A stretch of 32,000 nucleotides of DNA from Candidatus Iainarchaeum sp. (GTDB lineage: Archaea > Iainarchaeota > Iainarchaeia > Iainarchaeales > JAZDEL01). The notes under the pieces were generated by a model. The model was not told the DNA's origin. It made no database searches and saw only the letters and a list, made by a program, of their open reading frames with translations. Below are positions 1,458 to 26,121 of the stretch, one piece after another (position 1 is the first letter of the stretch; every line of letters starts with the position of its first letter). The position numbers and the translations under genes were made by a program. The stretch lies in contig JAZDEL010000006.1 in NCBI GenBank assembly GCA_043808785.1, positions 30,001 to 62,000 on the forward strand, given 5' to 3'.

Positions 1458-1823
1458 ATGAGCGTCAAGATGCCCTGCGAGATTGTCGGCTGGTATTTGC
1501 TCCCCGCGATAAGGAAGGGGGTAGTGAATGCGATGGTTGCCGAGGGCAAGGTTCCCAGGAAAAAGGTTGCAAAGGCGCTGGGCATTACCGAGGCCGCGGT
1601 GTGCAATTACATGAAGGGCAAGAGGGGCGCCAATCTGCCGCTTGGCAGCGAATGGAATATGGAAATAAGGAAAATTGCGAAAAAAATGGCAAATGCCGGG
1701 AAAGGCGGCGAAAAAGAGTTCATAATTGACACCTGTGCGCTGTGCACGCGCGTAAGGAAGGCGGGGCTGCTCTGCAAAATGCACAGGGAGCACGGTGCGC
1801 CTAAGGGCTGCAGTTCCTGCTGA
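1458..1823 (+). CDS. HTH transcriptional regulator with Cys-rich C-terminal metal/Fe-S-binding-like tail (COG2522-like)
   Basis: I trimmed the ORF 1326..1823 to the ATG at 1458 (MSVKMPCEIVGWYLLPAIRKG...). An HTH-like segment is present (RKKVAKALGITEAAVCNYMKGKRG). The C-terminus is CALCTRVRKAGLLCKMHREHGAPKGCSSC (CxxC..C..H..H..CxxC). Confidence 0.65.
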   Translation: MSVKMPCEIVGWYLLPAIRKGVVNAMVAEGKVPRKKVAKALGITEAAVCNYMKGKRGANLPLGSEWNMEIRKIAKKMANAGKGGEKEFIIDTCALCTRVRKAGLLCKMHREHGAPKGCSSC

Positions 1824-1839
1824 GCCTGGTGAAACCAAT

Positions 1840-2997
1840 ATGAAGCGCATTTACATGGACAACGCCGCAACAACGCGGATGGACGCGCGCGTACTGCACG
1901 CAATGCTGCCTTATTTCTCCGAAAAATTCGGGAATGCGTCCTCACTGCACGCATCCGGGAGGGAAGCGGCGGAGGCGCTTGAGCAGGCGAGGGGCAAAGT
2001 TGCGGGCGTTCTCGGGGCAAAAGCGGGGGAAGTTTGCTTCACTTCAGGGGGGACGGAAGCTGACAACCTCGCGGTAAAGGGCGCCGCTTTCGCGAACAGC
2101 GGAAAGGGGAACCACATAATAACGAGCGCAATAGAACACCCCGCCGTGCTGCAAACGTGCAAATTCCTTGAGCGCAAGGGGTTTGAGGTTACTTACCTGC
2201 CTGTTGACGGGTACGGGCTTGTGGACGCGGGTGCGCTTGAGCGCGCAATGACAAAAAAAACAATTCTTGTTTCGGTTATGCACGCGAACAACGAAGTAGG
2301 GACAATCGAGCCGGCTGCTGAAATCGGAAAAATTTGCGCGGGCAGGGGCGTGCTGTTCCACACGGATGCCGTGCAGACGTTCGGGAAGATTGCAACTGAT
2401 GTGAAGAGGCTGAATGCCGATTTGCTATCCATGAGTTCGCACAAGATTTACGGGCCGAAGGGCGCCGGGGCGCTTTACATAAGGGAAGGCGTTGCGCTTG
2501 AGCCGCTCATGCACGGGGGCGGGCACGAAAGGAAGATGCGCGCCGGCACCGAGAATATCGCGGGCATTGCCGGCTTCGGGGAAGCGGCGGCGATATGCGC
2601 GAGGGAGATGAAAATGGAGGCGGCAAGGGAAACCGCGCTCAGGGAAGGGCTTGTGAAGGGCGTGCTTTCTGAAATTGAGGGGAGCAGGCTGAACGGGCAT
2701 CCCAAAAAAAGGCTGCCGGGGAATGTGAATATTTCATTTGAGGGGATAGAAGGGGAGAGCCTTATAATGCGCCTTGACATGAAGGGAATTGCGGCATCTA
2801 CGGGCTCCGCGTGCTCCTCAAAATCGCTGAAGGCAAGCCATGTCCTGCTTGCGTGCGGCCTCGAGGAACTGGAAGCGCACGGCTCGCTCAGGCTTACGCT
2901 CGGAAGGACGAACACAAAGGCGGACGTGGAGTATGTGCTCAAGGCCCTGCCCGGAATTGTCGAAGGGCTGGGAAAAATAAGCCCGATTGCGAAGTGA
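1840..2997 (+). CDS. iscS: cysteine desulfurase (IscS/NifS family, PLP-dependent)
   Basis: The sequence starts MKRIYMDNAATT. It carries the PLP-lysine motif SSHKIYGPKG, an HTDAVQ motif and the active-site loop STGSACSS. The start was trimmed to the ATG at 1840. Confidence 0.92.
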   Translation: MKRIYMDNAATTRMDARVLHAMLPYFSEKFGNASSLHASGREAAEALEQARGKVAGVLGAKAGEVCFTSGGTEADNLAVKGAAFANSGKGNHIITSAIEHPAVLQTCKFLERKGFEVTYLPVDGYGLVDAGALERAMTKKTILVSVMHANNEVGTIEPAAEIGKICAGRGVLFHTDAVQTFGKIATDVKRLNADLLSMSSHKIYGPKGAGALYIREGVALEPLMHGGGHERKMRAGTENIAGIAGFGEAAAICAREMKMEAARETALREGLVKGVLSEIEGSRLNGHPKKRLPGNVNISFEGIEGESLIMRLDMKGIAASTGSACSSKSLKASHVLLACGLEELEAHGSLRLTLGRTNTKADVEYVLKALPGIVEGLGKISPIAK

Positions 2998-3022
2998 ATG
3001 TTGATTATAAGGGCGTGGGAAT

Positions 3023-3478
3023 GTGTACGGGAAAAAGGTAATGGATGAATTCAAAAACCCGAAGGGCATGGGCAGGATAGAGGGTGCGGACGGTGTGGGG
3101 ACTGTCGGAAATCCGCAATGCGGGGATGTTATGAAAGTCTACATCAAAGTTCAGAAGGGCAAAATCGCGGATGTGAAGGTCGAAACATACGGGTGCGTTG
3201 CCGCGATTGCAACATCATCCATGGTTGCACAGATGGTTAAGGGGAAAACAATTGCCGCGGCGGGAAGGCTGACGAAAGAAGAGGTTGCAAAAAAGCTTGG
3301 CGGCCTGCCCCCGATAAAGATGCACTGCTCGGTGCTTGCCGTGGACGGGCTCAGGGCGGCAATAGAGGATTACCTGGAAAGGGACGGGAGAGAGGAAGGA
3401 AAAGTTGTGCGCGGAATGAAATGCCGCGGCGGGCTGGCGCGGGGAAAGCGTGCCGGCACGAAAACCAAACTCCGCTAG
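3023..3478 (+). CDS. iscU: Fe-S cluster assembly scaffold IscU/NifU-like
   Basis: The GTG start gives (M)YGKKVMDEFKNPKGMG. The three scaffold cysteines are present in GNPQCGD, YGCVAAIATSS and MHCS. A roughly 28-aa basic C-terminal extension is atypical. Confidence 0.85.
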   Translation: MYGKKVMDEFKNPKGMGRIEGADGVGTVGNPQCGDVMKVYIKVQKGKIADVKVETYGCVAAIATSSMVAQMVKGKTIAAAGRLTKEEVAKKLGGLPPIKMHCSVLAVDGLRAAIEDYLERDGREEGKVVRGMKCRGGLARGKRAGTKTKLR

Positions 3479-3633: not shown

Positions 3634-6591
3634 ATGGAAAACGAAATAGCCTCCATAAGGAAGCGCGACGGCAGGATTGTGCCCTTTGACGGCGGGAAGA
3701 TAACGAACGCGATTTTCAAGGCAGCGCAGGCTGTGGGGGGAAGCGACAAGGCAACAGCGGACAGGCTTGCGGGAAGGGTTTTCGAGGCGCTTGGGAAGAG
3801 GTTCAGGGCGGATGAGATACCGAACGTTGAGCAGATACAGGACGTTGTTGAAAAGGTGCTTATAGAGGAGGGGCACGCAAAGACAGCGAAGGCTTACATA
3901 CTTTACAGGCAGCAGCACAGGAAGATAAGGGAAATGGAGAGCACGCTCGTGGACGTGCAGAACACCATTGATGAGTACCTGGAGCAGAGCGACTGGAGGG
4001 TAAAGGAGAACAGCAACGAGGCGTATTCGTTCAGCGGCCTGCTGCTGCATACGGCAGGGAAAGTCATTGCGACTTACGCGCTGACGGAAATTTACACGCC
4101 GGAAATAAGCGAGGCGCACAAGAAGGGATATTTCCATATACATGATTTGAGCCACGGGTTTATAGGCTACTGCGCGGGATGGAGTTTGGAAAAGTTGCTT
4201 GAGCGCGGCTTCGGGGGAGTGGCGAACAAGGTGGATGCGAAGCCCGCAAAGCACATGGATGTTGTAGTGCACCAGATGGTAAACTACATAGGCTGCCTGC
4301 AGATGGAGTTTGCGGGGGCGCAGGCGTTCAGCAGTGTTGATACGCTTCTTGCGCCTTTTGTTAAGGCAGACAACCTCACATATAAACAGGTCAAGCAGGA
4401 CATGCAGAAGCTTGTGTTCTCGCTGAACATTCCCTCCAGATGGGGCTGCTTCAGCGAGGATACTGAAATCCTCACGGAAGCGGGCTGGAGGAACGGCACT
4501 GAACTCGGGGAAGGGGATGTGATTGCAACGTTCAACACCGGCACGGAGGAAATAGAATATTTGCCCGTGCTGAGAATGACAAAAGACCATTACAAGGGAA
4601 AAATGAAAAGGCTGAAGAACAGGATTACGGACCAGCTGATTACGCCAAACCACAGGGTGCTGAGAAGGATACACAATTACAAGGAAGGGGTTTCAAAATC
4701 GAAATATGTTTTCGAGGAAGCGGACAGCCTGAAAACGGGCATTCCGCTTATACCGCTCGGCGGAACTTACAACGGAAATAAAATGGATGGCGACATGGTT
4801 AACCTCCTTTCATGGGTTGTTTCCGAGGGCAGCCTGTGCGAAGGGGAAAGGGTGGCAATCCACCAGTCCGCGGAAATGAACCCGCAGAACTGCGATGAGA
4901 TAAGGGGAACGCTTGGCGGGCTTGAAATTCCATTTGATGAAATGCCTAAAATGTCGGGGTTCACGGGAAAAACAAACTGCCTGAGGTTCAGGCTGAACAG
5001 GCCTGCATCGAGGGCTCTGCGGAACGAATTTTTCCCGGAATACAAGAAAGGGATTCCTGAAAGCATAAGGCATCTGCCAACCGAACAGATAAGGCAGTTT
5101 GTGGAAACATATATGAAGGCTGACGGCTGGCTGCCTGAGAACAAAATTTACACAAAGAAGCAATCTGATGCGGACATATTCCAGGAGATTATAGCAAAGG
5201 CGGGCTGGGGCAGCACGTGCTACAAGAACAAGAACGGCATTTATGTCGTGAGGGTTATAAGGCACCATTACACGCAGGTCACATCGATATGCGAGGAGGA
5301 TTATGACGGAATTGTCTGGTGCCCGACAACGGAGAACAACACAGTTGTTGTGAGGAGAAAGGGGAAAGTTTTCATAAGCGGGAACTCGCAGTATCCTTTC
5401 AGCAACCTCACATTCGACTGGGTTGTTCCCGAGGATATGAAGAACAAGAAGGCGCTTGTCGGCGGCGTGAGGCAGGAGTTCACTTACGCAGACTGCCAGA
5501 AGGAGATGGACATGATAAACAAGGCGTTCCTTGAAATCATGGGCGCGGGGGACGCGAACGGAAGGGTATTCACGTTCCCGATTCCGACATATAACCTGAC
5601 AAAGGACTTTGACTGGGATAGTGAGAATGCAAACCTCCTCTTTGAGGTTACGGCGAAGTATGGCTTGCCCTATTTCCAGAACTACATAGGCAGTGCGCTG
5701 GAGCCGAGGAGCATAAGGGCTATGTGCTGCAGATTAAACATGGACACGACGCAATTGATGAACAGGCCCGGGAGCATGTGGGGCCCGGGGGACAGCACGG
5801 GCAGCATAGGGGTAGTGACAATCAACGTGAACAGGCTTGCGTACGAGGCGAAGAACAGGGAGGAGTATTTCAGGAAGCTTGCGCACTACATGGGGCTTGC
5901 GAAGCAGTCATTGGAAACAAAAAGGGCGATAATAAACAAGAACCTCGAGAACGGGCTCATGCCCTATACGAAATCATACCTCGGCACGTTCAGGAACCAC
6001 TTCTCGACAATAGGGCTCTGCGGAATGAACGAGGCGTGCAAGAACCAGGTCGGGGAGGGAATAAACGGCAGGGAGGGCAAGCAGTTTGCAATAGAAACGC
6101 TGAATTTCATGCGCAACAAGTGCCTTGAGTTCCAAATAGAGACGGGCAGCCTTTACAACCTTGAGGCAACGCCCGCGGAAAGCGCTTCTTTCAGGCTTGC
6201 GAAACTCGACAAGGAAATGTATCCCGACATCATAACCTCGGGGAAGGATGTGCCTTACCTTACGAACTCCACGCAATTGGGCGTGGGGGAGACGGATGAT
6301 GTAATCGAGGCGCTGGAGCACCAGAACGACCTGCAGCCCCTTTATACAGGAGGCACGATATTCCACACGTTCATGGGCGAGAAGGTTTCGAGCGGCGGGG
6401 CGTGCAAGAGGCTTGTGAGGAAAATAGCGGAGAACACGAGGCTGCCTTACTACAGCATAACCCCCACGTTCAGCGTGTGCCCGGAGCACGGGTATATTGC
6501 AGGGGAGCATTTCAGGTGCCCCGTGTGCACGGATGGCGGCAAGGGGAAGGCGGAGAAAGAAGCGGTGGCGGTTTCGCACAAGGCAGGGTAA
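3634..6591 (+). CDS. nrdD: anaerobic (class III) ribonucleoside-triphosphate reductase large chain; contains an intein and lacks the glycyl-radical C-terminus
   Basis: An N-terminal ATP-cone is present (IRKRDGRIVPFDGGKITNAIFKA). NrdD core motifs are present (NIPSRWG / SQYPFSNLTFDW, RAMCCRLN, LYNLEATPAE). The C-terminal metal site is TPTFSVCPEHGYIAGEHFRCPVC. The ORF then ends in a non-conserved-looking tail without an RxxGY glycyl-radical motif. Confidence 0.9.
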   Translation: MENEIASIRKRDGRIVPFDGGKITNAIFKAAQAVGGSDKATADRLAGRVFEALGKRFRADEIPNVEQIQDVVEKVLIEEGHAKTAKAYILYRQQHRKIREMESTLVDVQNTIDEYLEQSDWRVKENSNEAYSFSGLLLHTAGKVIATYALTEIYTPEISEAHKKGYFHIHDLSHGFIGYCAGWSLEKLLERGFGGVANKVDAKPAKHMDVVVHQMVNYIGCLQMEFAGAQAFSSVDTLLAPFVKADNLTYKQVKQDMQKLVFSLNIPSRWGCFSEDTEILTEAGWRNGTELGEGDVIATFNTGTEEIEYLPVLRMTKDHYKGKMKRLKNRITDQLITPNHRVLRRIHNYKEGVSKSKYVFEEADSLKTGIPLIPLGGTYNGNKMDGDMVNLLSWVVSEGSLCEGERVAIHQSAEMNPQNCDEIRGTLGGLEIPFDEMPKMSGFTGKTNCLRFRLNRPASRALRNEFFPEYKKGIPESIRHLPTEQIRQFVETYMKADGWLPENKIYTKKQSDADIFQEIIAKAGWGSTCYKNKNGIYVVRVIRHHYTQVTSICEEDYDGIVWCPTTENNTVVVRRKGKVFISGNSQYPFSNLTFDWVVPEDMKNKKALVGGVRQEFTYADCQKEMDMINKAFLEIMGAGDANGRVFTFPIPTYNLTKDFDWDSENANLLFEVTAKYGLPYFQNYIGSALEPRSIRAMCCRLNMDTTQLMNRPGSMWGPGDSTGSIGVVTINVNRLAYEAKNREEYFRKLAHYMGLAKQSLETKRAIINKNLENGLMPYTKSYLGTFRNHFSTIGLCGMNEACKNQVGEGINGREGKQFAIETLNFMRNKCLEFQIETGSLYNLEATPAESASFRLAKLDKEMYPDIITSGKDVPYLTNSTQLGVGETDDVIEALEHQNDLQPLYTGGTIFHTFMGEKVSSGGACKRLVRKIAENTRLPYYSITPTFSVCPEHGYIAGEHFRCPVCTDGGKGKAEKEAVAVSHKAG
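4447..5385 (+). mobile_element. intein (313 aa) with LAGLIDADG homing-endonuclease domain, inserted in nrdD between ...SRWG and SQYPF...
   Basis: It starts with Cys (CFSEDTEILTEAGW, block A). Block B is ITPNHRVL. LAGLIDADG-like blocks are LLSWVVSEGS and FVETYMKADGW. The terminal block is VVVRRKGKVFISGN, followed by a +1 Ser. The flanking extein sequence reconstitutes the conserved RWG-SQxPFSN motif. Confidence 0.8.
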
Positions 6592-6638
6592 AAGTTAGCG
6601 CAGCAAATTAAATTTACGCAAAAAACGAGGTGATGTGA

Positions 6639-6800
6639 ATGGCGGAATGCGGAAAGGAGTGCGAGGTATACAGCAGGATTGTCGGCTACTTCAGGCCTGT
6701 GCAGAACTGGAACATGGGCAAGAGGGAGGAGTTCGGCGAGAGGCTTGAATACAGCGAACAGAAGGCGCTTGCGGGGGAGTTCGCCAAACGGGGCAAGTGA
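6639..6800 (+). CDS. stand-alone class III RNR glycyl-radical domain (53 aa)
   Basis: Hand translation gives MAECGKECEVYSRIVGYFRPVQNWNMGKREEFGERLEYSEQKALAGEFAKRGK. The RIVGY-FRPV-xxWNxGKxxEF pattern is the canonical NrdD C-terminal glycyl-radical signature. GAGGTGAT lies upstream of the ATG. The frame differs from nrdD, and the 47-nt spacer has stops in all three frames. Confidence 0.7.
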   Translation: MAECGKECEVYSRIVGYFRPVQNWNMGKREEFGERLEYSEQKALAGEFAKRGK

Positions 6801-6804
6801 TTTT

Positions 6805-7047
6805 TTGATAAAGGCTTACAAATTATTCACGATACAGACATGCACCAAATGCCCCGAAATCAAGGGGTTCCTTGCGGGCACGGGGCTGAAGGGCGAGGAG
6901 ATAAACGCAACAACCGATGCGGGGTTTGAAGAGGCGAAAAAGCACAATGTAATGGCCGCGCCCACCGTGATTTTTTTTGACGGGAACGGGAAGGAAGTTG
7001 CAAGGGCGGGCACGATTGAGGAGATAAAAAAACTGCTCCTGCCGTGA
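6805..7047 (+). CDS. small thioredoxin/NrdH-like redoxin (80 aa, CTKC active site)
   Basis: A TTG start at 6805, 4 nt after the stop of the glycyl-radical ORF, gives (M)IKAYKLFTIQTCTKCPEIKGFL...AAPTVIFFDGNGKEV. That is a CxxC after strand 1 plus a cis-Pro-like APT motif. The upstream part of track ORF 6679..7047 overlaps the previous gene and was discarded. Confidence 0.6.
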   Translation: MIKAYKLFTIQTCTKCPEIKGFLAGTGLKGEEINATTDAGFEEAKKHNVMAAPTVIFFDGNGKEVARAGTIEEIKKLLLP

Positions 7048-7099: not shown

Positions 7100-7798
7100 A
7101 TGCAAATAAATGGACTCCAGAAAACCACGCTCATAGATTTCCCCGGAAAGGTTGCCTGCACTGTTTTCCTTGCGGGATGCAACTTCAGGTGCCCTTACTG
7201 CCAGAACCCCGACCTTATCGAGGGTTCCGGGAAACTGCCGGCAATTCCCGAAGAAGAGTTCTTCGGCTTCCTTGAAGGCAGGAAAAAATGGCTGGATGGG
7301 GTTTGCATAACGGGCGGGGAGCCGACGATAAACGGGGAACTTCCGCGATTCGTGAAAAAAATAACGGAACTGGGGTTTGCGGTGAAGCTTGACACCAACG
7401 GCACGAACCCGGAAATGCTTGCGGAACTTTTAAAGGCGGGGCTGCTTGATTACGTTGCAATGGACATAAAGGCGCCACTCGGGAGGTATACGGGGGTTGC
7501 GCGCGTTAAGGCGGATGCGGATGCGGTAAAAAAAAGCGCTGCGCTGCTCATGAAAAGCGGGGTTGAATACGAATTCAGGACAACGGTTGTGCCCGGGCTT
7601 TTCGATGAAAAGGATGCGCGGGAGATTGCGAAGTGGCTTAAGGGCGCGGAGAAATATTACATACAGCAGTTCAATCCGCGCACAAGGCTGCTGGACAGGG
7701 CATTCGAGAAGATTGAGCCCTACCCGGGGAAACGGCTTGAGGGGTTCGGGAAAATTATGAAGCCTTCGTTCAGGATTTGCGAAATAAGGGGAATTTGA
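7100..7798 (+). CDS. nrdG: anaerobic RNR activating enzyme (radical SAM)
   Basis: GLQKTTLIDFPGKVACTVFLAGCNFRCPYCQNPDL contains the CxxxCxxC radical-SAM cluster motif. A GGEPT motif is present. AGGAGGG SD lies upstream. Confidence 0.88.
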   Translation: MQINGLQKTTLIDFPGKVACTVFLAGCNFRCPYCQNPDLIEGSGKLPAIPEEEFFGFLEGRKKWLDGVCITGGEPTINGELPRFVKKITELGFAVKLDTNGTNPEMLAELLKAGLLDYVAMDIKAPLGRYTGVARVKADADAVKKSAALLMKSGVEYEFRTTVVPGLFDEKDAREIAKWLKGAEKYYIQQFNPRTRLLDRAFEKIEPYPGKRLEGFGKIMKPSFRICEIRGI

Positions 7799-7852: not shown

Positions 7853-8041
7853 ATGGAGAAGAAGGAGAAGCCGCATATAAATTACACCAAATGCAAATTA
7901 AGCGGGATGTGCAAGAGCGTTTGCCCGATGGGCGTGTTCGAGAAAAAGGAAAAGAACATGGTCGTCAAGCACCCCGAGAAGTGCATACAGTGCAGGGCGT
8001 GCGAGGTAAGCTGCCCGCACGGCGCGATTGAGGTTAAGTAA
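7853..8041 (+). CDS. 2x[4Fe-4S] ferredoxin (62 aa)
   Basis: Two cluster motifs are present: CKLSGMCKSVCP and CIQCRACEVSCP. A possible internal TATA (ATAAATATAAAAA) lies at about 7809-7821. Confidence 0.8.
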   Translation: MEKKEKPHINYTKCKLSGMCKSVCPMGVFEKKEKNMVVKHPEKCIQCRACEVSCPHGAIEVK

Positions 8042-25485: not shown

Positions 25486-26121
25486 CTATTCCGTCGCAGC
25501 CATGGCCCGCGCTAGTTTATAGGGGTTTGAAAAGCCGATTTCGGAAATCCATTTTCGCAGGTTTGCCTTCCCGTTTAGTGGAACCTTATATGCGGTTCGG
25601 ACTGATGTTTTTGATTTGTAAGCCCAAATTTTTGCAACATTGAATCCGGCAACGCTTAATAGTTCCTTCAACTGTTCCGCAAGAGCGCGGCTCGTAGTGG
25701 TTATCTCAATAGAAGGGTATTTCGGCGAGCCCGGTTTGTCGGCCACGAAAACGGAGCCGTCCGTGTCCACGATGCCCCGGATTGCGTGCTTTGCCGACTC
25801 CCAATCGGCTTCGATTTCGGCGGGAATTTTGGCCTTAGCGCACTTGCCTTCATGGAAAGGCAACCTGAATGTAGTCGTCAGGCGTTCCACGATCGGCTTA
25901 GAGTCAAATTTAATTCTGACCGCACGTTCCCTGAATTTAGGCTTAACCACCCGCCCCCATGCGGAATAAATTAGGCGGCTCAGATTTTCAAAATACTGCG
26001 CATCGGTTATTGGATTTCCCGTAAAGCCGATTATGTATTTCCTGTTGCGTTTGTAAATGTGCCCGTCCCCGAGGTAGGCGCCGATTAGTTCGCATTCTTC
26101 GGGAGAAATAGTTTCAGCCAT
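25486..26121 (-). CDS. free-standing double-motif LAGLIDADG homing-endonuclease-like protein (211 aa)
   Basis: Motif 1 is ELIGAYLGDGHIY and motif 2 is AIRGIVDTDGSVF, about 100 aa apart. It has its own TATA (TTTAAATT) about 26 nt upstream of the ATG, suggesting a leaderless mRNA. It lies between tRNA-Lys(UUU) and tRNA-Phe on the same strand. Confidence 0.8.
   Translation of the reverse strand: MAETISPEECELIGAYLGDGHIYKRNRKYIIGFTGNPITDAQYFENLSRLIYSAWGRVVKPKFRERAVRIKFDSKPIVERLTTTFRLPFHEGKCAKAKIPAEIEADWESAKHAIRGIVDTDGSVFVADKPGSPKYPSIEITTTSRALAEQLKELLSVAGFNVAKIWAYKSKTSVRTAYKVPLNGKANLRKWISEIGFSNPYKLARAMAATE

What the first reader, a model, noticed from the sequence alone, without database searches (positions are those of the whole stretch)
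6478..6800. Split class III RNR: the glycyl-radical domain is a separate 53-aa gene downstream of a truncated NrdD
- The 985-aa nrdD ORF stops at TAA 6589-6591. This is just after the C-terminal metal-binding motif (TPTFSVCPEHGYIAGEHFRCPVC), with a Lys/Ala/Glu-rich tail and no glycyl-radical motif.
- A separate ORF (6639-6800) starts 47 nt downstream, behind its own GAGGTGAT ribosome-binding-like site and in a different frame.
- It encodes MAECGKECEVYSRIVGYFRPVQNWNMGKREEFGER..., the canonical NrdD C-terminal glycyl-radical signature (RxxGY followed by RPVxxWNxGKxxEF).
- The spacer carries stops in all three frames (TAA 6589, TAG 6596, TAA 6609, TGA 6631, TGA 6636). Neither read-through nor a single indel would fuse the two pieces.
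- In characterised NrdD enzymes this is one polypeptide. A detachable radical-bearing peptide would be conceptually like GrcA/YfiD, the spare-part glycyl-radical protein for PFL.
- It could allow replacement of an oxygen-cleaved radical domain without resynthesising an intein-containing protein of about 110 kDa.
- The small ORF also carries its own CxxC (CGKEC).
Basis: partly seen in the sequence, partly recalled or inferred. Interest (0 to 1): 0.85.

Follow-up and report, generated by a model that had tools for sequence, protein, structure and literature searches.

The report
Two-gene anaerobic ribonucleotide reductase
In this archaeon the oxygen-sensitive enzyme that makes DNA building blocks carries its radical-bearing tip on a separate 53-residue protein. 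The same split occurs in many small-genome (DPANN) archaea and has not, as far as I could find, been described.

Summary

- **Anatomy.** nrdD (3634-6591) ends 20 residues after its metal-binding motif and has no glycyl-radical loop. A 53-aa gene (6639-6800) with its own strong ribosome-binding site encodes that loop.
- **Not an artefact.** About 62 of the 120 nearest large chains also lack the loop. 132 of the 150 best cluster representatives matching the small protein are standalone. At least 15 loci show the same gene pair. Their junctions range from a 26-nt overlap to a 119-nt gap, in all frame offsets. The small gene is under purifying selection.
- **Break point.** The break lies inside the second zinc knuckle (CP | xCG). 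Cys4 of the small chain aligns with the invariant fourth metal ligand of fused enzymes, so the metal site is probably completed between the chains.
- **Best reading.** This is an obligate two-chain class III ribonucleotide reductase produced by gene fission.
- **Repair idea.** Orphan copies of the small gene in a PerR/peroxiredoxin/desulfoferrodoxin cluster and in phages give it circumstantial support.
- **Novelty.** I found no published description. A 2026 review says spare-part proteins are known only for formate lyases.

The parts
3634..6591 (+). nrdD large chain. The precursor is 985 aa: ATP-cone, class III RNR barrel and the first three metal ligands. It has no glycyl-radical loop.
   Evidence: ORF. 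Pfam ATP-cone and NRDD, and NCBIfam NF006126 at 983 bits to profile position 649/684. The AF2 model matches solved NrdD structures.
4447..5385 (+). Intein of 313 aa (Cys1 ... Asn313, +1 Ser) inserted at RWG|SQYPF.
   Evidence: Alignment with intein-free relatives L001 and L002. Weak intein_Nterm hit. P0121 is 95% identical and lacks the intein.
6478..6528 (+). Metal-site residues on the large chain: Cys949 (6478-6480), His952 (6487-6489), Cys962 (6517-6519), plus a lineage-specific extra Cys965 (6526-6528).
   Evidence: C636/H639/C649 in extein numbering are invariant or nearly invariant in alignments A2 and A3. They align to the T. maritima NrdD C..H...CPVC motif.
6529..6588 (+). Lys/Ala/Glu/Gly-rich 20-aa tail of the large chain. 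It is not conserved and is predicted to be disordered.
   Evidence: Tails of relatives are 1-50 aa, rich in E/K/V/A/G and cannot be aligned. AF2 pLDDT is below 50 for residues 655-679 of the concatenated model.
6592..6638 (+). 47-nt spacer with stops in all three frames and the Shine-Dalgarno sequence GAGGTGAT at 6628-6635.
   Evidence: Sequence. No terminator on the + strand. No Rfam family. No significant RNA structure, z = +1.1. Other genes in the window use similar SD sites.
6639..6800 (+). Small chain of 53 aa carrying the glycyl-radical loop. Cys4 is at 6648-6650, Cys8 at 6660-6662 and the radical Gly16 at 6684-6686.
   Evidence: Pfam NRDD positions 526-562, E = 8e-11. Invariant S12 R13 V15 G16 R19 P20 V21 W24 N25 G27 K28 in 30 standalone homologues. 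Cys4 and Gly16 fall on invariant columns of 55 fused NrdDs. dN/dS is about 0.15.
6805..7047 (+). Glutaredoxin/NrdH-like redoxin (80 aa, TTG start, CTKC motif), the probable reductant of the active-site cysteines.
   Evidence: Weak Pfam Glutaredoxin and Thioredoxin hits. 33% identity to the redoxin domain fused to the small chain in L105.
7100..7798 (+). NrdG, the radical-SAM activase.
   Evidence: NCBIfam TIGR02495 NrdG2, E = 1e-64, above the curated cutoff.
7853..8041 (+). 2x[4Fe-4S] ferredoxin, a possible electron donor to NrdG or the redoxin.
   Evidence: Pfam Fer4 families. The same position is occupied in L168 and L178.

Best explanation
The locus encodes a class III (anaerobic, glycyl-radical) ribonucleotide reductase built from two polypeptides.

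**The two chains.**
- The large chain is 672 aa after intein excision. It supplies the ATP-cone, the catalytic barrel with the Cys-Cys finger loop, and three ligands of the structural metal site (Cys949, His952, Cys962).
- The 53-aa small chain supplies the radical glycine (Gly16 in RIVGY), the conserved RPVxxWNxGK segment that follows it, and the cysteine homologous to the fourth metal ligand (Cys4, with Cys8 as an alternative).

**Origin (shown by comparison).** The arrangement arose by gene fission inside the second zinc knuckle. This is a loop that in related DPANN archaeal enzymes first acquired insertions.

**Mechanism (inferred).**
1. The two genes are co-transcribed and the small one is translated from its own Shine-Dalgarno site.
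2. The small chain docks so that its glycine loop enters the barrel. It is latched by completing the metal site between the chains.
3. NrdG (7100-7798) abstracts hydrogen from Gly16.
4. The adjacent redoxin re-reduces the active site.

**Consequence (inferred).** The oxygen-labile part of the enzyme is a cheap 6-kDa subunit. In principle it can be replaced without remaking the large chain.
For: **The two ORFs are complementary.**
- They meet on the NrdD profiles with only 3-4 positions of overlap.
- In an alignment with 55 fused NrdDs, small-chain Cys4, Glu9, Arg13 and Gly16 fall on invariant columns. The large chain's C636 and C649 are invariant and H639 nearly so. The extra Cys965 is not placed on the fourth-ligand column.
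- T. maritima NrdD reads RCPVCGKAKVDEYMRIVGY across the break.

**The split recurs.**
- About 62 of the 120 nearest 90%-identity clusters of the large chain end 1-50 aa after 'CP' with no radical domain. 52 of these have no further Cys.
- An exhaustive search of 1.84 billion representatives found 132 standalone small proteins among the best 150, and 129 of them start with Met.
- 118 of 120 small proteins have a Cys 12 and/or 8 residues before the radical Gly.

**Junctions differ but are always functional-looking.**
- At least 15 distinct loci show large chain followed by small chain (then NrdG where the downstream DNA is held). Junctions run from -26 to +119 nt in all frame offsets.
- In the 12 whose junction DNA I read, a GGAGGT- or AGGTGA-like Shine-Dalgarno site precedes the ATG in nearly all, weakest in L089.

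**Selection.** Synonymous sites are saturated, pN is 0.07-0.2 and dN/dS is about 0.15.

**Fission route.**
- 143 of 146 fused enzymes have exactly 7 residues between the third Cys and EVYSR.
- The long-linker exceptions are DPANN-type archaeal relatives with 15- and 28-residue linkers (L009, L008), and P0160 has a 5-residue insertion.

**Model.** AF2 on the concatenated chains gives pLDDT 81.5. Only the junction (residues 655-679) is disordered, and the best structural matches are NrdD structures.

**Literature.** The radical domain is a mobile, rigid-body unit that must leave the barrel to be activated (PMC11226230; PMC12662201).
Against: - There is no expression, protein or activity data for any split enzyme. 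Assembly in trans, metal binding between the chains and activation of the free peptide by NrdG are all inferred.
- This particular large chain keeps a CPVC knuckle (Cys965). Here the metal site could be completed within the large chain, leaving the role of Cys4/Cys8 open.
- The AF2 model was built as one chain with an alignment of mostly fused homologues. It could hardly have placed the domain elsewhere, and no coordinates were available to measure Cys distances.
- The NJ tree has weak internal support (49-87%), so the number of independent fissions is uncertain.
- The rest of this genome could not be checked for a second, complete nrdD.
Confidence: 0.85

Rival explanations
1. Artefact or decay. 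The split is an assembly or sequencing error, or a recent pseudogenising mutation of an ordinary fused nrdD.
For: The window comes from a metagenome-assembled genome. A few low-coverage gut contigs in the related set (L099, L125, L164) do look like frameshifted fused genes.
Against: - Stops occur in all three frames across 47 nt.
- The same architecture appears in dozens of independent assemblies, with different junctions and conserved SD plus ATG.
- The small gene is under purifying selection.
- A 95%-identical relative (P0121) has the same truncated end.
Confidence: 0.02
2. One polypeptide after all. Programmed frameshifting, ribosomal bypass (as in T4 gene 60), RNA splicing or protein trans-splicing rejoins the two parts.
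For: The spacer of 47 nt is close to the 50-nt hop of T4 gene 60. The same gene already carries an intein.
Against: - Junctions in relatives range from a 26-nt overlap to a 119-nt gap, with every frame offset. No single recoding device fits them all.
- There is no matching take-off and landing codon (GGG before the stop, none at the landing site).
- The junction has no significant RNA structure, z = +1.1, and no Rfam element.
- The flanking peptides are 1-50 aa and 2-28 aa of unconserved sequence, too short and too variable for split-intein halves.
- Every small gene starts with Met behind an SD site.
Confidence: 0.03
3. Strict GrcA-type spare part. The functional enzyme is a complete fused NrdD encoded elsewhere. 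The 53-aa protein only rescues it after oxygen damage, and the truncated large chain here is an inactive remnant.
For: Orphan NrdD-type radical-domain genes with no nrdD within about 3.5-4 kb exist in a PerR-AhpC-desulfoferrodoxin cluster (L173) and in phages (L192 Mu-like, L236 caudovirus, about 20 IMG/VR loci).
Against: - The large chain here is fully conserved. Its catalytic columns are invariant. It sits in an operon with NrdG, a redoxin and a ferredoxin.
- The GRD-less form is the majority among its nearest relatives.
- A dead remnant would not be maintained across phyla.
Confidence: 0.05
4. Neutral fission with no functional consequence. The two chains assemble once, stay together, and behave exactly like the fused enzyme. 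The split is just one of the many gene fissions of reduced DPANN genomes.
For: - Fused and split forms are interleaved at 70-75% identity within one well-supported clade.
- A fused form with an insertion (L008) is among the window's closest relatives.
Against: - The split form predominates and persists across several DPANN phyla.
- Standalone copies have been recruited to oxidative-stress clusters and phages, which suggests the free domain has a use of its own.

This rival is compatible with the anatomy of the best explanation. It disputes only the adaptive reading.
Confidence: 0.45

Closest known systems
Canonical single-chain class III RNR (NrdD of phage T4, E. coli, T. maritima, P. copri, S. 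thermophilus) with activase NrdG
   Same: Same ATP-cone, same barrel, same Cys finger loop, same metal-site ligand pattern, same RxxGY...WNxGK radical loop, and the same adjacent NrdG.
   Different: In all characterised enzymes the radical domain is the C-terminus of the catalytic chain. Here it is a separate 53-aa gene product, and the metal site is divided between the two chains.
GrcA/YfiD, the autonomous glycyl-radical 'spare part' for pyruvate formate-lyase (and its T4 homologue vs.6)
   Same: A small autonomous protein that carries a glycyl-radical loop and must dock into a large barrel protein. Like GrcA, it would allow replacement of an oxygen-cleaved domain. Orphan relatives of the small chain occur in oxidative-stress and phage contexts, as grcA-like genes do.
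   Different: It is not homologous at family level. The small ORF hits only PF13597 (NRDD), not the Gly_radical family. GrcA supplements a PFL that has its own domain, whereas here the large chain has none, so the small chain is obligatory. The 2026 review states that spare-part proteins are known only for formate lyases (PMC13450708).
Split class II RNR NrdJa/NrdJb (Pseudomonas aeruginosa)
   Same: A ribonucleotide reductase catalytic chain encoded by two consecutive genes. The downstream piece carries a zinc-finger-containing C-terminal module (PMC9669993).
   Different: It is a different RNR class (B12-dependent) with a different break point. The second piece there carries reducing cysteines, not the radical site.
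Class I RNR alpha/beta architecture
   Same: Functional analogy only. The stable radical is stored on a subunit separate from the catalytic barrel.
   Different: There is no homology between the 53-aa chain and ferritin-like NrdB. Radical transfer here would be by direct contact, not long-range.

Membership tests
Class III ribonucleotide reductase (NrdD) | RNR/GRE barrel domain matching the NrdD profiles | tested here: met
   PF13597 E = 1.5e-160. NF006126 scores 983.6 bits against a cutoff of 548. The fold matches 9D3X, 8P2S, 4COI and 1H79.
Class III ribonucleotide reductase (NrdD) | Glycyl-radical motif RxxGY followed by the conserved C-terminal segment | tested here: met
   The motif is present (RIVGYFRPVQNWNMGK), but on the separate 53-aa product.
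Class III ribonucleotide reductase (NrdD) | Four-ligand structural metal site immediately before the radical loop | tested here: inconclusive
   All ligand columns are occupied (C949, H952, C962 plus small-chain C4). However, they lie on two chains, and this lineage has an extra C965. Metal binding cannot be tested here.
Class III ribonucleotide reductase (NrdD) | Cognate radical-SAM activase NrdG encoded nearby | tested here: met
   TIGR02495 NrdG2, E = 1e-64, at 7100-7798.
Class III ribonucleotide reductase (NrdD) | Barrel and radical domain on one polypeptide, as in every characterised member | tested here: not met
   A stop at 6589 and stops in all frames separate the two ORFs. The same holds in about 62 of 120 nearest relatives.
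Class III ribonucleotide reductase (NrdD) | Glycyl radical formation and NTP reduction | not testable with these tools
   This needs anaerobic biochemistry and EPR.
GrcA/YfiD autonomous glycyl-radical proteins | Sequence membership in the PFL-type Gly_radical family | tested here: not met
   The only Pfam hit of the small ORF at E <= 0.01 is PF13597 NRDD. NCBIfam gives only NrdD models.
GrcA/YfiD autonomous glycyl-radical proteins | Small autonomous protein consisting essentially of a glycyl-radical loop | tested here: met
   53 aa with its own SD and ATG. 132 standalone homologues among the best 150 representatives.
GrcA/YfiD autonomous glycyl-radical proteins | Acts as a substitute for the damaged domain of an enzyme that has its own radical domain | tested here: not met
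   The partner large chain has no radical domain at all. Orphan relatives (L173, phage loci) might fit this feature, but their partners are unknown.
Split inteins / protein trans-splicing | Intein halves flanking the break, with a nucleophile at +1 and conserved splicing blocks | tested here: not met
   The flanks are 20 aa and 3 aa here, 1-50 aa and 2-28 aa in relatives, and are unconserved. No intein profile hit at the junction.
Programmed translational bypass or frameshift | Conserved recoding signals (slippery or matched codons, stimulatory RNA structure) at a fixed geometry | tested here: not met
   Geometry varies from -26 to +119 nt in all frames. There is no structure and no Rfam element.

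The most novel reading that the evidence does not exclude
The small protein is a consumable, exchangeable radical subunit, making this a spare-part system for class III ribonucleotide reductase.

- NrdG would activate the free peptide, or the peptide while it is docked.
- The peptide would latch onto the large chain by completing the metal site between the chains.
- After oxygen cleaves it at the radical glycine, a fresh copy would take its place.
- Orphan copies under PerR-type control and in phages would then be dedicated replacement parts. This extends the GrcA principle from pyruvate formate-lyase to ribonucleotide reduction.
Probability: 0.35. Interest if true: 0.85.

Novelty: new variant of a known kind. 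Interest (0 to 1): 0.68.

Why it matters
- **A departure from the textbook form.** Glycyl-radical enzymes are described as single chains whose radical glycine sits on the C-terminal domain. A 2026 review states that autonomous radical-domain proteins are known only for formate lyases. A natural, widespread two-chain NrdD shows that the radical domain of ribonucleotide reductase can work in trans.
- **A ready-made experimental system.** It allows direct tests of how the domain leaves and re-enters the barrel, what NrdG recognises, and what the structural metal site does.
- **A possible tolerance mechanism.** It suggests how strict anaerobes with tiny genomes might tolerate transient oxygen: they would discard a 6-kDa peptide instead of a 76-kDa enzyme.
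- **An annotation problem.** Truncated nrdD genes and tiny 'NrdD' ORFs in metagenome-assembled genomes and viruses are being read as partial genes or as complete reductases. The 144-aa 'nrdD' of virus ANMV-1 is one example.

Tried and rejected
- **AF2, single sequence.** Prediction of the concatenated chains without an alignment gave pLDDT 35 and was uninformative.
- **AF2, locus-derived alignment.** I rebuilt it from database hits as A3. No coordinates are returned, so Cys-Cys distances at the metal site could not be measured.
- **Tree.** The first bootstrap tree timed out. I redid it with a numpy NJ.
- **Regex errors.** My motif patterns mislabelled L012, P0159, P0173 and P0179 as lacking the radical domain. 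I corrected these by eye. The CPC class was undercounted by a greedy pattern and was counted from the listing instead.
- **dN/dS.** The script gives pS above 1 for distant pairs because of saturation. Only the closer pairs are usable.
- **Negative searches.** Rfam, terminator scan, RNA folding of the junction and PHROGs were all negative.
- **Literature.** Searches for a described split NrdD found nothing. The Logan 2003 paper on the T4 NrdD metal site is not held, so statements about that site rest on PMC11226230 and on my own knowledge.
- **Left open.** I did not determine the taxon of the orphan-copy locus L173. Its PerR and AhpC look bacterial.


Full report
**1. Observation**

- ORF 3634-6591 (985 aa) ends at TAA 6589-6591, 20 residues after ...TPTFSVCPEHGYIAGEHFRCPVC.
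- A 47-nt spacer follows. It contains stops in all three frames (6589, 6596, 6609, 6631, 6636) and the Shine-Dalgarno-like GAGGTGAT (6628-6635).
- ORF 6639-6800, in another frame, encodes MAECGKECEVYSRIVGYFRPVQNWNMGKREEFGERLEYSEQKALAGEFAKRGK.
- Pfam NRDD matches the large chain up to profile position 528/562 and the small ORF over 526-562 (E = 8e-11). NCBIfam NF006126 matches the large chain to 649/684 and the small ORF over 646-683. The two pieces are therefore complementary, with 3-4 profile positions of overlap.
- The precursor carries a 313-aa intein (aa 272-584, nt 4447-5385), defined by alignment with intein-free relatives. The mature large chain is 672 aa.
- Downstream lie a glutaredoxin-like redoxin (6805-7047, TTG start), NrdG (7100-7798; TIGR02495, E = 1e-64) and a ferredoxin (7853-8041).
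- No + strand terminator, Rfam element or significant RNA structure lies at the junction.
- Other genes in the window use similar Shine-Dalgarno sites.
- NCBI names an identical copy of the small protein as coming from a Candidatus Diapherotrites archaeon. The neighbouring genes are archaeal in type, for example a class I LysRS and a KaiC-like ATPase.

**2. The split is real and conserved**

*Database searches*

- A search with the 53-aa protein returned 152 hits, and the 120 listed were all 36-87 aa. That search is word-indexed and may favour short proteins.
- I therefore repeated it exhaustively against 1.84 billion cluster representatives. It gave 3194 hits at E <= 1e-3. Of the best 150:
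  - 132 are standalone small proteins (46-131 aa; 129 start with Met);
  - 8 are a standalone radical domain with a C-terminal extension;
  - 4 are fragments of fused genes;
  - 3 (two of them long fused NrdDs) carry the domain inside a long NrdD chain;
  - 3 did not match my motif pattern.
- Conversely, about 62 of the 120 nearest 90%-identity clusters of the large chain's C-extein lack any radical loop and end 1-50 aa (median about 13) after the third metal ligand. About 56 are fused. P0121, 95% identical to the window, has the same CPVC...tail end and no intein.

*Genomic context*

- Context was recovered for at least 15 distinct split loci: window, L001, L002/21, L005, L011, L088, L089/90, L093, L094, L105, L150, L171, L175, L176 and L178. 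L168 probably belongs with them, but its upstream gene is cut by the contig end and was not identified.
- Each shows large chain followed by small chain, then (redoxin and) NrdG where the downstream DNA is held.
- Junctions range from a 26-nt overlap to a 119-nt gap in all three frame relationships.
- In the 12 loci whose junction DNA I read, nearly all have a GGAGGT- or AGGTGA-type ribosome-binding site 4-9 nt before an ATG; L089's is the weakest. For L168, L171, L175, L176 and L178 only the gene calls were inspected.
- The junction DNA cannot be aligned between lineages, while both flanks are conserved.

*Selection and taxonomy*

- Across the 27-codon core of the small gene, synonymous sites are saturated, pN is 0.07-0.2, and dN/dS is about 0.15 where measurable.
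- Source names span Diapherotrites, Micrarchaeota/Bilamarchaeaceae, Woesearchaeota, Aenigmarchaeota and Nanoarchaeia.

This excludes assembly error and pseudogenisation. It also makes any fixed recoding device implausible.

**3. Where the break is**

- In 143 of 146 fused relatives, the third ligand Cys is followed by exactly seven residues before EVYSR, that is C-P-x-C-G-x-x-x-EVYSR.
- T. maritima NrdD (4COI/4U3E) reads RCPVCGKAKVDEYMRIVGY.
- In an alignment of the concatenated window chains with 55 fused NrdDs, small-chain Cys4, Glu9, Arg13 and Gly16 fall on invariant columns. On the large chain, C636 and C649 (extein numbering) are invariant and H639 is nearly so.
- The split therefore lies between P and x of the second knuckle, CP | xCG.
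- 52 of about 62 GRD-less large chains have no Cys after 'CP'. Three have CPxC (including the window) and seven have CPC.
- 118 of 120 small proteins have a Cys 12 and/or 8 residues before the radical glycine. The two exceptions look like 5'-truncated gene calls.
- The simplest reading is that three ligands come from the large chain and the fourth from the small chain, so the structural metal staples the chains together. In the window's lineage the extra Cys965 leaves this open.

**4. How it arose**

- Among fused enzymes, the only long-linker exceptions to the seven-residue rule are DPANN-type archaeal relatives carrying insertions in the knuckle:
  - L008, 73% identical to the window over the 350-aa barrel core: CPVELGEAADSGRHETRIQEKSVTCGKNCEVYSR;
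  - L009, Micrarchaeota: CPKPKNGNGERCGRSCEIYSR;
  - P0160, Aenigmatarchaeota: CPVQTNGHTCGKPCEVFSR.
- Many split large chains end ...TNGG or ...NGH, exactly where P0160 continues with TCGK.
- An NJ tree of 343 barrel columns places split and fused forms together in one 100%-supported clade: L089/90 split; L001 and the window split; L008, L097 and L010 fused. A second, all-split clade contains L150, L021, L005 and L105 (65% support). L011 (split) pairs with L009 (fused).
- Insertion in the knuckle followed by fission, more than once or with re-fusions, fits these data. The internal support is too weak to count events.

**5. Mechanism**

*Shown*

- The two gene products are complementary and conserved.
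- Catalytic and ligand columns are conserved.
- The operon includes the activase and a redoxin.
- The Cys-Cys finger loop (RAMCCRL) is invariant.

*Inferred*

- The genes are co-transcribed and the small chain is translated independently.
- The glycine loop docks in the barrel, latched through the metal site.
- NrdG forms the radical on Gly16.
- The adjacent redoxin provides reduction. It is homologous (33% identity, E = 5e-10) to a redoxin domain fused directly to the small chain in L105 and in P0255/P0301.

*Model and literature*

- An AF2 model of the concatenated chains (alignment A3) has pLDDT 81.5 and pTM 0.78. Only residues 655-679 (the large-chain tail plus the first seven residues of the small chain), a loop at 399-406 and the last seven residues fall below 50. 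The radical-loop region scores 59-76. The best structural matches are the solved NrdDs.
- Because it was modelled as one chain with fused homologues, this is a consistency check, not independent evidence.
- Published cryo-EM and HDX work shows that the NrdD radical domain is a Zn site plus a buried loop plus a tail, is highly mobile and moves as a rigid body (PMC11226230). It must flip out of the core for NrdG to act (PMC12662201). This makes a detachable version physically plausible.

**6. The spare-part idea**

In this locus the small chain is obligatory, so it is not a spare part in the GrcA sense. However, the standalone domain also occurs away from nrdD.

- **L173/L174.** The order is a PerR-like regulator, a 27-nt gap with AAGGAGGTGA, the 56-aa domain gene, AhpC and desulfoferrodoxin. 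Nearby are a flavodiiron protein, a ferritin-like protein and a hemerythrin-PAS protein.
- **L005.** The whole split operon sits among rubrerythrin, desulfoferrodoxin and glutaredoxin genes.
- **IMG/VR viral contigs.** About 20 of 80 loci carry a short standalone domain gene with no NrdD barrel or NrdG detectable within about 4 kb. They include a Mu-like phage (L192: MuB-like ATPase, Gam, GemA, SLT) and a caudovirus (L236: prohead protease, tail tube).
- **Other mobile-looking contexts.** L132 and L169.
- **ANMV-1.** The 144-aa 'nrdD' of this archaeal virus is only a Zn ribbon plus the radical loop. The original paper nonetheless took it as evidence that the virus encodes an oxygen-sensitive reductase.

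These contexts resemble those of grcA/yfiD and its T4 homologue vs.6. They suggest the free domain is useful in trans, possibly for repair after oxygen damage. This is circumstantial: the partner enzymes in those genomes are unknown.

**7. Comparison and novelty**

- The locus is a member of class III RNR by every sequence criterion except the single-chain architecture.
- It is not a member of the GrcA family, since its only family hit is PF13597.
- The nearest precedent for a split RNR is NrdJa/NrdJb in class II, which breaks elsewhere and does not separate the radical site.
- I found no description of a split NrdD in full-text searches, in a 2024 survey of archaeal fusion/fission families including its supplements, in RNR-wide phylogenomic papers, or in a 2024 survey of non-canonical glycyl-radical enzymes.
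- PHROGs and NCBIfam have no family for the small protein.
- I rate it a new variant of a known kind.

**8. Verdict**

- Confidence that this is a functional two-chain enzyme: 0.85.
- Probability that the small chain is an exchangeable, consumable subunit: about 0.35.
- Interest: 0.68.

Noticed in passing
L173 3144-4681 (also L174); JGI 3300005573 contig Ga0078972_1001772: An orphan 56-aa NrdD-type radical-domain gene sits between a PerR-like regulator and AhpC plus desulfoferrodoxin. A flavodiiron protein, a ferritin-like protein and a hemerythrin-PAS protein are nearby, and no nrdD lies within 3.5 kb. It looks like a GrcA-style spare part for ribonucleotide reductase.
   Followed up: partly
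L192 (Mu-like phage), L236 (caudovirus), and about 20 of the IMG/VR loci L180-L259: Short standalone NrdD-type radical-domain genes occur on viral contigs with no NrdD barrel or NrdG detectable within about 4 kb. PHROGs has no family for them.
   Followed up: partly
L260 3180-3614 (ANMV-1 virus, KP703175.1, AJP62049.1): The annotated 'anaerobic ribonucleoside triphosphate reductase' is only 144 aa: a CxxC...CxxC ribbon plus the radical loop. The 2015 paper used it to argue that the virus encodes an oxygen-sensitive RNR.
   Followed up: partly
L105 4433-4954; proteins P0255, P0301, P0334; window 6805-7047: In some lineages the small radical chain is fused at its C-terminus to a glutaredoxin-like domain. 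That domain is homologous to the redoxin gene that follows the small ORF in the window after only 4 nt and starts with TTG. Many bacterial fused NrdDs of about 800 aa carry the same kind of domain after the radical loop.
   Followed up: partly
protein P0356 (192 aa): A standalone radical domain is fused to a region bearing the HAE...PCxxC signature of cytidine/dCMP deaminases. This is another link to nucleotide metabolism. A dCMP deaminase gene also lies near the split operon in L171.
   Followed up: no
window 4447-5385: A 313-aa intein (Cys1, TPNH block B, ...SGN/S end without the usual penultimate His) interrupts nrdD at RWG|SQYPF. A 95%-identical relative (P0121) lacks it, so the invasion is recent.
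   Followed up: partly
window 6526-6528 (Cys965); P0121, P0122, P0168; seven CPC-type large chains: A minority of GRD-less large chains keep a fourth Cys (CPxC or CPC) although the small chain also has its Cys. It is unclear which one binds the metal.
   Followed up: no
small proteins P0001-P0120: 56 of 120 standalone small chains have a Cys in their last 8 residues, often as CxxC (for example ...CKTC, ...CPRC, ...CGC). The window's copy does not. Some fused relatives have these as well. The pattern recalls the redox-shuttling C-terminal Cys pairs of class I and II RNRs.
   Followed up: no
window 1795-3478; L002 1538-2731; L005 662-2245: A class-V aminotransferase of the cysteine-desulfurase type, and in the window and L005 also an IscU/NifU-N scaffold gene, lie just upstream of nrdD (about 1.2-1.7 kb upstream in L002 and L005, with one to three other genes between). 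This may be a conserved link to Fe-S supply for NrdG and the ferredoxin.
   Followed up: no
window 25486-26121 (- strand): A free-standing 211-aa LAGLIDADG-type ORF, not obviously inside a host gene.
   Followed up: no
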